Origin: an uncultured bacterium
GTDB lineage: Bacteria > Armatimonadota > Abditibacteriia > Abditibacteriales > Abditibacteriaceae
DNA length: 64,000 nt
Assembly (NCBI GenBank): GCA_963843795.1
Contig: CAWJLW010000006.1
Span: 2,356,001-2,420,000, forward strand
Direction: 5' to 3'
Of this stretch, positions 27,001-30,000 are shown piece after piece. Made by a program: the position numbers. The stretch's first letter is position 1; every line of letters begins with the position of its first letter.

Positions 27001-30000
27001 GTATAATGAGGGGCGGCACAGCGCGAAAATTGTAGAAAGTTGCGACTTCGATTTTGAATCAGAGGGAGGATCATTCGATGGATTCACCGGTTTCCTCAAC
27101 GCCAAATGGCACCAGGAATGAGAATGCAGAAGGGACGAACGACCATGCGAGTCAGGATTCAAGTGGCCCCGATTTAGATTGGGTGTGGCGTGAAGTACGC
27201 AAACGCGTGTTTTTGAAAGTGCCTTTTGGCATCGGTATCAAAGATGCGCTCGAAGCAGCTCATCCGATTGCATTCGACAACGATCATTTCGTGGTCGGTT
27301 TACATCCGCGCCACTCTGCCCTGACCAGTAACCTGACCACGCCGCATATTCAGAACACTATCGAAAACATTCTCAGCAGCGCTTCTCATCGTCCGATTAA
27401 ATTGGAAGTGATAGAAGGTGTTTCCGAAGCCGACTGGCATCTGGTGCGCAACCGGCGCAATCGCGCGCAGGAAGCGGTTGTCGAAATGGCGCAAAAGCAT
27501 TCCGACGCTCATCATTTCGACGATGTACTGAACCAAATCGTGGGCGAAATTCGCGCGAACTTGGCCAGCACCAAAGATCGCGGTTTGCCGCAGGTGCGCG
27601 CTCAGATGATGCTGGACGTAGTACCCAGCATGGCCGATGCGTGCGAAATGTTATTTCCCGATCCTGATGCCCACGAAGCCCGTCGCGCGATGGCGCGTGC
27701 CATTGATCGCGTGGCGTCGTTTTTAGAAGTGCAGCCGATCATTTTAGCTTTGGAAATTGAACGTTATCGCCGTCAAGAAGGACACGATGTCAAATCGAGT
27801 ATGCGCGCTTCCAACGCGGCAGTTGGCAACGCTTAATTGCCGCGTGTGCATATCGCGCTCCTTATTTTGTGCGCTGATAAAATTGCCATTCTGAATGGAA
27901 CCTGCGGTTCGGTAGGTTCTCTCACTTGCTACTGGTTAAACTACTTAATCATCTTAATCATCGTCTTCGCCTCATAATTTTGCGGAGGCCCAACTCCGCC
28001 CGTGACTTTTTCGCCTTTTTCCAACTCACCCGAAACTCCCGAACCCAATGGCAGCGCCACCAACGAAAACGTGGCCCATGATGACCCTGCCATTCACAGC
28101 GCCGCGCCCGCCACTTCCAGCGAACTGGATTCCAGCGAACTGGATTCCAGCAATCAGGATGTGGTTTCCGAAGGGTTAGAGCCGACAGAAACGGTGCAAG
28201 TACTTGCACCGCCTGCGCAGCTATCGAATGGAACGAAAACACAGAGCGTTTCCAAACCGATGCTGGCTTCGGCGCTGGCGGTCGGTGCGGCGGGCTGCGT
28301 CGCGTTGGCGTTCTGGGCTTCCAAAACCGGTCAACTGTCCACGAATCCAGCTTTGGTCGTCGCTCCTACTGCAGCCAGCGCGACGCCTGTGCCCAATGCC
28401 ACGCAACCGCCGATTGTTTTCACCGCGCCCCAACTCAACCGTCCCAATCCCAAGGCAACCGGAAAAAACGCGCCCAAATCCGCTGGAGCAAGAACAGAAG
28501 TGCCAAACGCAAATGCGGGCGCGTCGGCGAATCCATTGGGGAATGGCAGTTTGCCAGCCGGAGGAAATCCGGCGCGCGCTTTGTCTCAACTGCCGCCAGC
28601 ACCCGGAACAGGCGGAGGAACGAGACCCAATGCGGCGATTGCGCAAGATTTCGACCGCGCAGTTGCGGCGCAGAAAGCGGGCAACATCGAAGAAGCCATA
28701 AAATGGTATCGTTCAGTTCTGCAAAAGCAGCCTGCAGCACTTGAAGCGCGCACAAATATGGCAATCCTGTTCGCGCAAAATAAGCAGCCCGCCAAAGCTG
28801 TCGAGCAGTTGGAAGCCGCGCGCAAAATAGCACCCGAGAATCCGGCGATCAACTGGCAGTTGGCGCAAATGCAACTCGCCTTGAAAAAGCCGGACAAAGC
28901 TCTTGAACCGTTGCGCGCAGTGCTCAAAGCCGATCCGAAAAATGTGCCCGCGCACGTTTTGCAGGCACAAATCTTAACTGAAACCAGAAAATTCCCCGAA
29001 GCCTATCAAGCCTGGCAGCGCGTGGCAGAAATGACGCCCAAAGACGGACAGGCGGCGCTCGCGGCGGGCAGTATTGCGCTTCAGGAATTGAAAAAACCGG
29101 CTGAAGCCGAGAAGTGGTTGCGCCGCGCCACTGCGCTCCCGCCCGCCAATCCGCGCGCGCCGCTAGCTTTGGCGCAGGCACTTCTGGCGCAAAAGAAAGC
29201 CGGTAGCGCAGTGCGAGTGCTGGCTCCCGCAGCCAAAAAATATCCCGAAATCATCGAATTCGGCACGATGCTGTCCGATGCGCGCGCCGCAGATGGCGAC
29301 TTGAAGGGCGCGACCAGTGCACTGCGCGCCGTTATCAGCAAAGTGCCCCAGAAAACCGGCGCAGCGTATGGACAGTTGCGCTGGCAAATGGGCCGTTTGT
29401 TGGCCGGTCAGAAAGAATGGAAGGATGCGCAAAGGGAACTGCAAGCCGCCGCCAAAGAATTACCTAAAAACGCCGATTTGCGCGGTGCGCTAGCCGAAGT
29501 CGCCCTGCAGGCGAACGATAAAAAAGCAGGCGTGGCGAACTTGAAAACGCTGCTTGAACTGGATCCGAAACGCGTCGGGGCGCGTGTGGTTCTGGCGCAG
29601 GTCTTGGCACAAAACGGTGACTTCAAAAGCGCCAATGAACAATACCGCAAGTACTTGCAGGCCAAACCGGGCGATGCCACAATTGTAGCCGAACGCGCGG
29701 TCGTGCTGGAAAAGCTGGGCCGCACCGACGACGCTTTAAAATTGTGGACGCGCGCCGAACAATTGCTGCCCGACAATCCGCTGCCGATGTTGCAGCGCGG
29801 TCGAGTTTTGCGCAAAGCCAAGCGCGACAAGGAAGCGCTACAAGCGTTTCGTCATGTGTTGCAGGTGAAGCCAAACGAGCCGCGCGCGCTGCTCAATGCT
29901 GCTGAATTAGAAACTCAAAGCGGCCAATACAGCAGCGCCGTAACGCGCTGGAAGGCGCTTATCGCGCAGGAGCCGGGCTACGATGCAGCGTATGGCAACC

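What a model noticed while it worked through the whole genome (the two positions that open the first line are those of the whole stretch)
27078..27836. Phylum-universal stand-alone DnaA-domain-I protein beside recO
g02220 (252 aa, no family), downstream of recO, is single-copy across Armatimonadota and its N-half aligns with DnaA domain I. It is likely an extra replication-initiation or helicase-loading adaptor, besides the genome's DnaA and DciA. It would be a new component of bacterial replication control.
Evidence so far: 30/31 phylum genomes; hhalign of 21 members to this genome's DnaA 1-110: probability 71, E 3.7e-5, 80 columns, and no match to DciA (213); DnaX_C in 3/21 members (162).
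(Added by a program. Inside this text positions count along the whole contig: contig position 2,356,001 is position 1 of the stretch shown here. "Call 12" and the like, gene names such as g00115 and contig names such as C1 are that model's own, and its searches are not shown. The text may have been shortened before it was handed on; [...] marks where a part breaks off. The agent that wrote the report below was given it as the finding of a first reader that could run no searches.)

Follow-up and report, generated by a model that had tools for sequence, protein, structure and literature searches.

The report
Phylum-wide free replication-hub domain protein
Nearly every genome checked in one little-studied bacterial phylum (Armatimonadota) keeps a single gene for an unnamed protein whose front half is related to the docking domain shared by the replication initiator DnaA and the clamp-loader subunit tau, and whose back half is a predicted helical bundle of no known family, so it is likely an extra, untested adaptor of the DNA-copying machine.

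Summary
The gene is real (252 aa, own ribosome-binding site and promoter-like site). It is found in 148 of 151 Armatimonadota genomes, single-copy wherever checked, and the tree largely follows the genome families. Its N-domain (residues 33-113) is a homologue of DnaA domain I (model vs 4TPS: Z 11.6, 2.1 A). It is equally a homologue of the tau/DnaX C-terminal domain (profile probabilities 97.9 tau, 97.5 DnaA, 31 DciA, 2 RbfA). It is therefore a third branch of that clan, not specifically 'DnaA-I'. DnaA's partner-binding Trp is Ala in 55 of 58 members and the Phe is not kept. The recO link holds only in the genome's own family (14 of 15; 0 of 130 elsewhere). New here: a four-helix C-domain of no known family with a conserved arginine face, and a J-domain fusion confined to one clade. 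Best reading (0.4): a fork adaptor that binds DNA or an acidic tail and docks on DnaB or Pol III. Rivals are a non-replication role (0.3) and an initiation regulator (0.2). No partner is shown. The scan had not noted this family before, but had noted free tau-domain copies in other organisms.

The parts
26135..26947 (+). recO; upstream neighbour in the own family only
   Evidence: RecO_N and RecO_C; adjacent in 14 of 15 own-family genomes and 0 of 130 others
26979..27007 (+). sigma70-like promoter (TTCAAA-17-TATAAT), so the gene may be transcribed apart from recO
   Evidence: 10 of 12 consensus matches (3 sites found in the region vs 1.5 in shuffles); TANAAT upstream in 37 of 58 family loci vs 15.4 expected. 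Not tested by RNA data
27061..27069 (+). ribosome-binding site AGAGGGAGG, 8 nt before the ATG
   Evidence: sequence
27078..27836 (+). the gene: 252-aa protein P0001
27078..27167 (+). residues 1-30, variable low-complexity leader; a J domain occupies the N-terminus in one other clade of the family
27174..27416 (+). residues 33-113: alpha-alpha-beta-beta-alpha-alpha-beta (type II KH-like) domain of the DnaA-I / tau-C clan; W37 invariant
   Evidence: AF2 models; VIA and Foldseek; hhalign; NCBIfam tau models
27426..27497 (+). residues 117-140: long predicted helix after the conserved IEGxTxEDWxxxKxR motif
   Evidence: R126-to-column-151 spacing is 25 residues in 41 of 58
27513..27794 (+). residues 146-239: predicted four-helix domain of no known family; conserved RxLPQxRA motif and R203/R207/R211 face
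   Evidence: K/R in 55, 55 and 57 of 58; best VIA Z 9.0 to generic bundles; no DnaA domain IV match (0.4%); Atlas gave only the family itself
27842..27858 (+). weak terminator-like hairpin after the stop
   Evidence: 6 such sites vs 4.0 in shuffles, so no more than chance
28002..30419 (+). TPR-repeat protein; downstream neighbour in the own family only
   Evidence: 12 of 15 own-family loci

Best explanation
This is a phylum-wide single-copy protein with an N-domain homologous to DnaA domain I and the tau C-terminal domain plus a predicted four-helix C-domain, and it likely acts as an extra replication-fork adaptor whose arginine face would grip fork DNA or an acidic protein tail while the N-domain would dock on the DnaB helicase or Pol III. 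Shown: the gene, its range, single copy where checked, the homology of the N-domain, the loss of DnaA's hub residues, the conserved arginines and the one-clade J-domain fusion. Predicted: the fold. Inferred and untested: a role in replication, the partner, the ligand of the C-domain, and that the J domain brings DnaK to remodel the complex. It would act beside the intact DnaA, DciA and tau, for example in holding or reloading the helicase at forks away from oriC, rather than in origin opening.
For: 148 of 151 genomes, and a tree that largely follows the genome families; no hit in 50,697 phage or 72,556 plasmid records with one member as query. Profiles link the N-domain only to replication proteins: tau-C 97.9%, DnaA-I 97.5%, DciA 31%, RbfA 1.9%. 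NCBIfam tau models hit up to 13 of 58 members (best E 8.3e-10) against 3 of 58 for DnaA (best 6.9e-3). In the own genome the second-best hit of the N-domain profile is DnaA (E 0.38), and the second-best hit of the DnaA-I profile is this protein (E 1). The top three VIA rows are DnaA-I and the top three Foldseek rows are tau domain V. Both parent proteins contact the helicase (PMC5872134 and PMC13220808, passages), and DciA uses the same fold plus helices to bind ssDNA and DnaB (PMC12547741, abstract). K/R is kept at 168, 203, 207 and 211 in 54-57 of 58. Free or fused tau-C copies arise repeatedly in this phylum. DnaK/DnaJ remodelling of lambda P-DnaB and plasmid Rep proteins is recalled, not from a call.
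Against: No gene-context support: neighbours outside the own family are mixed metabolic, envelope and RNA genes, with single cases of holA, gyrB and hrcA-groEL. DnaA's W27 column is Ala in 55 of 58 and the F49 column is not Phe. The match to tau models ends at profile 551-575 of 585, short of tau's terminal helix; that this helix binds the polymerase is recalled. tau-C and DnaA-I are closer to each other (98.9%) than either is to this family (98.3%, 97.8%), so it has diverged most and may have changed role. RNA-binding KH proteins (eS7, RbfA) follow at Z 7-8. Both domains are slightly acidic overall. HPD is lost in 8 of 17 J domains.
Confidence: 0.4

Rival explanations
1. The domain was taken from a replication protein early in the phylum but now serves another core process, such as binding RNA or the ribosome, or delivering a client complex to DnaK.
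For: Most divergent of the three clan branches; hub residues remodelled; no replication genes nearby; RNase E/G directly upstream in 3 loci of two families; KH-fold RNA binders at Z 7-8; J-domain fusion in one clade; an arginine face suits RNA as well as DNA.
Against: No profile similarity to RbfA (1.9%; 0 of 58 members reach 10 bits). The clan members named in the papers read (DnaA-I, tau, PolC N-terminus, DciA) all act in replication.
Confidence: 0.3
2. One reading: a free DnaA-domain-I mimic that acts at oriC, either pairing with DnaA domain I or competing for DnaA's partners, and so tunes initiation or helicase loading.
For: Best shape match is DnaA-I (Z 11.6, 9.3 and 8.8 vs tau 6.1). DnaA-I is the top PDB sequence hit (E 0.09). 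The family profile scores DnaA-I cores slightly above tau cores (median 18.5 vs 16.9 bits). W37 is invariant. Free DnaA N-domain competes with full DnaA in E. coli (PMC3290774, passage).
Against: W27 and F49, essential in B. subtilis (10.1101/2022.04.18.488658, passages), are not kept, although the phylum's own DnaA keeps them (aromatic in 26 of 27; Phe in 24 of 27). The invariant Trp is also in all 29 tau-C rows, so it marks the fold. No DnaA boxes upstream. Not near dnaA. DciA is already present in 45 of 46 genomes.
Confidence: 0.2
3. A decoy that soaks up phage proteins aimed at tau or DnaA, or a damage-induced brake on replication.
For: A TIR-tau-C fusion and free tau-C copies occur in the own family. 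A LexA-like palindrome lies upstream in 4 of 58 loci vs 0.5 expected.
Against: Near-universal, single-copy, vertical pattern is unlike defence genes. The LexA signal fades with relaxed patterns (5 vs 2.8, 10 vs 7.3) and was one of six motifs tested.
Confidence: 0.07

Closest known systems
DnaA domain I (Pfam PF11638; PDB 4TPS, 2WP0, 2E0G)
   Same: Same predicted fold (81 of 84 residues, 2.1 A, Z 11.6), profile probability 97.5%, conserved first-helix Trp and the Pro before strand 1.
   Different: No AAA+ domain or domain IV; W27 is Ala and F49 is not kept; three-residue insertion after strand 2; followed by a conserved helix and a new helical domain.
C-terminal domain (domain V) of DNA polymerase III tau/DnaX (Pfam PF20964; NCBIfam PRK14950/14952/05563; PDB 2AYA, 5FKU)
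   Same: Best curated-model hits, profile probability 97.9-98.3%, top Foldseek rows (E 4.2e-4).
   Different: No clamp-loader ATPase; the domain is N-terminal; the match stops before tau's last helix; weaker rigid superposition (Z 6.1). The genome keeps an intact tau.
DciA / DUF721 helicase loader (PF05258; PDB 7YKM, 8A3V)
   Same: Same fold class (Z 7.0, 6.9) and the same plan of a KH-like domain joined to helices (10.1101/2022.01.24.477630, passages).
   Different: Profile match only 31%; 0 of 58 members reach 10 bits on a phylum DciA model; a separate dciA exists in 45 of 46 genomes.
PolC N-terminal NI/NII domains (PF14480, PF11490)
   Same: Same clan (PMC3919608, passage); Atlas feature hits at 0.84 (lead only).
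   Different: Part of a polymerase; PF11490 not found in this genome.

Membership tests
DnaA-I / tau-C type II KH-like domain clan | alpha-alpha-beta-beta-alpha-alpha-beta topology | tested here: met
   DSSP of two AF2 models, pLDDT 92 and 90; VIA Z 11.6. Predicted, not solved
DnaA-I / tau-C type II KH-like domain clan | Profile homology to clan members above a same-fold control | tested here: met
   97.9% and 97.5% vs RbfA 1.9%
DnaA | AAA+ domain III and DNA-binding domain IV | tested here: not met
   252 aa, no Pfam hit; C-domain vs phylum DnaA domain IV 0.4%
DnaA domain I (functional mimic) | Hub residues W27 and F49 (B. subtilis numbering) | tested here: not met
   Ala in 55 of 58 at W27; Leu, Met or His (or Glu in the other register) at F49
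DnaA domain I (functional mimic) | Binds DnaB or DnaA | not testable with these tools
DnaX tau | N-terminal clamp-loader ATPase and collar domains | tested here: not met
   None in the protein; no fused form among 455-2000-aa candidates, weak evidence
DnaX tau C-terminal domain | Closer to tau-C than to DnaA-I | tested here: inconclusive
   tau model beats DnaA model on 47 of 58 members, but the reverse test favours DnaA slightly and the tau model is more diverse; shape favours DnaA-I
DnaX tau C-terminal domain | Terminal polymerase-binding helix (role recalled) | tested here: inconclusive
   Matches end at 551-575 of 585; the genome's own tau reaches 579
DciA | DUF721/PF05258 sequence match | tested here: not met
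   Not among the 25 Pfam families listed for the 58 members; hhalign 31%; 0 of 58 at 10 bits
RbfA-type RNA-binding KH | Sequence homology to RbfA | tested here: not met
   1.9%; fold similarity only, Z 7-8
J-domain co-chaperone (fused members only) | J domain with HPD | tested here: met
   PF00226 in 17 representatives, HPD in 9 of 17; absent from the window's protein
Replisome adaptor (function) | Binds fork DNA and a replisome protein; depletion harms replication | not testable with these tools
   Needs experiment

The most novel reading that the evidence does not exclude
Armatimonadota carry a fourth, previously unrecognised core member of the DnaA-I / tau-C / DciA clan: a DnaA-independent helicase-recruiting adaptor that couples fork DNA to DnaB, filling the step that PriB-DnaT or DnaD-DnaB fill in model bacteria, and that one clade has wired directly to DnaK through a fused J domain.
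Probability: 0.2. Interest if true: 0.85.

Novelty: new variant of a known kind. Interest (0 to 1): 0.58.

Why it matters
Most bacteria load their helicase with DciA and lack the E. coli or B. subtilis accessory proteins (10.1101/2022.01.24.477630, passages). How they reload it at stalled forks is poorly known (own knowledge). A phylum-wide single-copy protein built on the docking fold of DnaA and tau is a concrete candidate for such a missing part, and it can be tested in cultured Armatimonadota or with purified proteins. Whatever its role, it is an unannotated core marker of the phylum, and it shows the tau/DnaA docking domain being reused on a new helical domain and, once, on a J domain. 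The claim rests on homology and distribution only.

Tried and rejected
recO linkage as functional evidence: rejected, it is limited to the own family. Split DnaX (this protein replacing a lost tau-C): rejected for this genome, whose DnaX has the domain. DnaX_C was found in 45 of 61 phylum genomes (a few rows are DnaA cross-hits), and in 3 of 5 DnaX loci from two families that Pfam missed. C-domain as DnaA domain IV: 0.4%. C-domain fold: only generic helical bundles, best Z 9.0, under the tool's caution level for helical folds; it was not folded alone, so a known fold is not excluded. Viral structures: no match at E 0.001. PHROGs: no family hit in more than 1 of 58 apart from a 3-member J-domain hit. 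Phage and plasmid records: none. Upstream DnaA boxes, CIRCE and LexA boxes: not supported (patterns recalled). Mirror-tree with DnaB (Spearman 0.54, 24 genomes): discarded, shared ancestry explains it. Sequencing runs: no RNA holder listed. Range outside the phylum was not tested genome by genome: one genome-contig scan gave a single Chthonomonadaceae locus, named members were Armatimonadota, Abditibacteriota or WS1, and the 245 weaker of 395 representatives were not shown. Literature searches found no paper on this family; subscription papers are not covered and no supplements were opened. Rows left out: 1 of 30 tau rows (L080, a TIR fusion) and 3 of 30 DnaA rows (L122, L125, L134, short frames); 7 of 65 unique loci from alignment A1 (six from the over-represented own family, plus L044); L114 from the domain IV profile. 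The tree is the quick version (SH-aLRT only), the careful run did not finish.

Full report
Observation. Window 27078-27836 (+) encodes a 252-aa protein with a strong ribosome-binding site 8 nt upstream and a sigma70-like site at 26979-27007. It follows recO and precedes a TPR protein. It has no Pfam family. Close homologues are named as hypothetical proteins of Abditibacterium and other Armatimonadota, and the three Atlas clusters at 0.95-0.96 are mostly Armatimonadota.

Range. One query found it in 147 of 151 phylum genomes. A 58-sequence profile recovered 1 of the 4 misses; the 3 left are drafts of 70-340 contigs, so absence is not shown. Eight genomes had two matches. In the 5 with both rows listed these are the N and C halves; 3 could not be checked. 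The profile finds 395 clusters at 50% identity among 1.84 billion proteins, a small family. One member as query found nothing in phage or plasmid records. A quick tree of 76 rows groups members largely by genome family, as expected for vertical descent. Restriction to the phylum is likely but was not tested genome by genome.

Neighbourhood. recO sits 40-185 bp upstream in 14 of 15 own-family loci, the fifteenth being at a contig edge. Comparing the place tables by eye, it is adjacent in 0 of 130 other genomes where both places are known. The 104 neighbour frames scanned with NCBIfam and 26 with Pfam are mixed: pyruvate kinase, RNase E/G, pilins, NADH dehydrogenase, and single cases of holA, gyrB and hrcA-groEL. 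My choice of neighbour frames was heuristic and missed some genes. A TANAAT hexamer lies upstream in 37 of 58 loci against 15.4 expected; DnaA boxes (1 vs 1.1) and CIRCE (0) do not, and a LexA-like signal (4 vs 0.5) fades with relaxed patterns. In this genome the gene is about 1 Mb from the GC-skew minimum near dnaA. Gene context therefore says nothing about function.

Anatomy. AlphaFold2 on the alignment gives mean pLDDT 92 and pTM 0.59: a variable leader, an alpha-alpha-beta-beta-alpha-alpha-beta domain (residues 33-113), a long helix (117-140) and four helices (146-239). The N part alone gives pLDDT 90 and pTM 0.78. Conserved positions include W37 (58 of 58), A57, G74, the IEGxTxEDWxxxKxR motif, RxLPQxRA, and R203, R207 and R211 (K/R in 55, 55 and 57 of 58), which lie on one helix face.

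Which clan member? By shape, DnaA domain I leads: VIA Z 11.6 (2.1 A, 81 of 84), 9.3 and 8.8, then eS7 at 8.2, RbfA at 7.8, DciA at 7.0 and tau at 6.1. Foldseek puts tau domain V first (E 4.2e-4, but rmsd 14-15 A over 119-120 columns) and DnaA-I next. With profiles built from the phylum's own proteins, hhalign gives tau-C 97.9%, DnaA-I 97.5%, DciA 31% and RbfA 1.9%. On trimmed cores it gives 98.3% and 97.8%, while tau-C and DnaA-I match each other at 98.9%. The tau model outscores the DnaA model on 47 of 58 members, but the family model scores DnaA cores slightly higher than tau cores (18.5 vs 16.9 bits), so the direction is not settled. Curated models lean to tau: Pfam DnaX_C 6 of 58 vs DnaA_N 2 of 58, and NCBIfam tau models up to 13 of 58 (best 8.3e-10) vs DnaA 3 of 58 (best 6.9e-3). 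The fair statement is a third, divergent branch of the DnaA-I / tau-C clan. PolC's N-terminal domains and DciA belong to the same structural group (PMC3919608 and 10.1101/2022.01.24.477630, passages).

It replaces nothing obvious. The genome has DnaA, DciA, a full DnaX with its C-domain, DnaB, DnaE, DnaG and PriA, and no PolC NII match.

Hub surface. T26, W27 and F49 of B. subtilis DnaA are essential for recruiting the helicase pathway (10.1101/2022.04.18.488658, passages). The phylum's DnaA keeps an aromatic residue at W27 in 26 of 27 and Phe at F49 in 24 of 27. This family has Ala in 55 of 58 and no Phe, and a new Trp two residues earlier in 37 of 58. A plain DnaA mimic is therefore unlikely. 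The tau match stops short of tau's terminal helix, so a plain polymerase hook is also doubtful; the role of that helix is recalled.

C-domain. No family or clear fold was found: best VIA Z 9.0 to generic bundles in the whole-model search, 0.4% to DnaA domain IV, and only the family's own cluster in the Atlas. It was not folded alone. The arginine face suggests a phosphate backbone or an acidic peptide as ligand (inference), although the domain is slightly acidic overall.

J-domain fusion. Seventeen of the 150 best representatives and 6 of 65 unique genome loci carry an N-terminal J domain, and HPD is kept in 9 of the 17. All 23 fused rows in the tree, plus one unfused row, form a single clade (SH-aLRT 98). 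One fusion event with later decay is the simplest reading. It suggests a complex that DnaK remodels. DnaK/DnaJ action on lambda P-DnaB and Rep proteins is recalled; my search for a paper on it returned nothing.

Mechanism. DnaA-I and tau both connect to the helicase (PMC5872134 and PMC13220808, passages), and DciA uses the same fold plus helices to bind ssDNA and DnaB (PMC12547741, abstract). I commit to a fork adaptor (0.4): the C-domain would hold fork DNA or an acidic tail, and the N-domain would dock DnaB or Pol III through a remodelled surface. A non-replication role gets 0.3, an initiation regulator 0.2 and a decoy 0.07. Every functional step is inferred. The planned DnaB complex prediction could not be run.

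Prior work. Eight searches of open full text found no account of this family. The scan had no look-alike of this sequence but had noted free or fused tau-domain copies in phages and in relatives of cyanobacteria. Those are unchecked leads. I saw the same kind of thing directly in two genomes of the own family.

Verdict. A real, apparently undescribed core protein of a phylum, with a known replication docking fold in a new architecture. New variant of a known kind; interest 0.58.

Noticed in passing
L080:1495-2622 (-), G045: 375-aa protein with an N-terminal TIR_2 domain (E 2.4e-9) fused to a C-terminal copy of the tau C-domain (E 2.1e-10), beside a normal dnaX elsewhere in the genome; possible integrated decoy of an anti-phage system.
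   Followed up: partly
L236:1527-1823 (-) and L237:810-1106 (-), G058: Two separate 98-aa genes that are free copies of the tau C-domain, very like the host's own, without the terminal helix.
   Followed up: partly
L122 (G012), 362-aa frame on the - strand: Protein with a DnaA_N domain at its very C-terminus after an unrelated N-terminal part; looks like a mobile-element replication initiator.
   Followed up: no
G000:C6:2697204-2699723 and 2695850-2697331 (-), outside the window: The only dnaE found lies in two overlapping frames; an assembly indel is the likeliest cause.
   Followed up: no
L032, L044, L050, L056, L066, L070, downstream of the family gene: An unnamed gene of about 227 aa follows the family gene in the J-fusion clade, abutting it in most loci; no Pfam hit, and its homologue in this genome lies elsewhere (C6:2491741-2492619).
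   Followed up: partly
L212, L213, L215 (G058, G092, G102): DnaB frames of 909-1376 aa in three own-family genomes, probably with inteins.
   Followed up: no
G009 and G025 (family f9): No RbfA match in the two f9 genomes scanned, both 99-100% complete.
   Followed up: no
window 30498-35912 (+): 1804-aa predicted secreted protein made of repeated Ig-like domains (Big_13, Big_3_3 in the first 1000 aa).
   Followed up: no
window 19661-25293: trp genes (trpD-, trpC-, trpB- and trpA-like by sequence, names recalled) interrupted by a short Fic/DOC frame at 21901-22170 and an opposite-strand Rv2179c-like exoribonuclease at 22467-23048.
   Followed up: no
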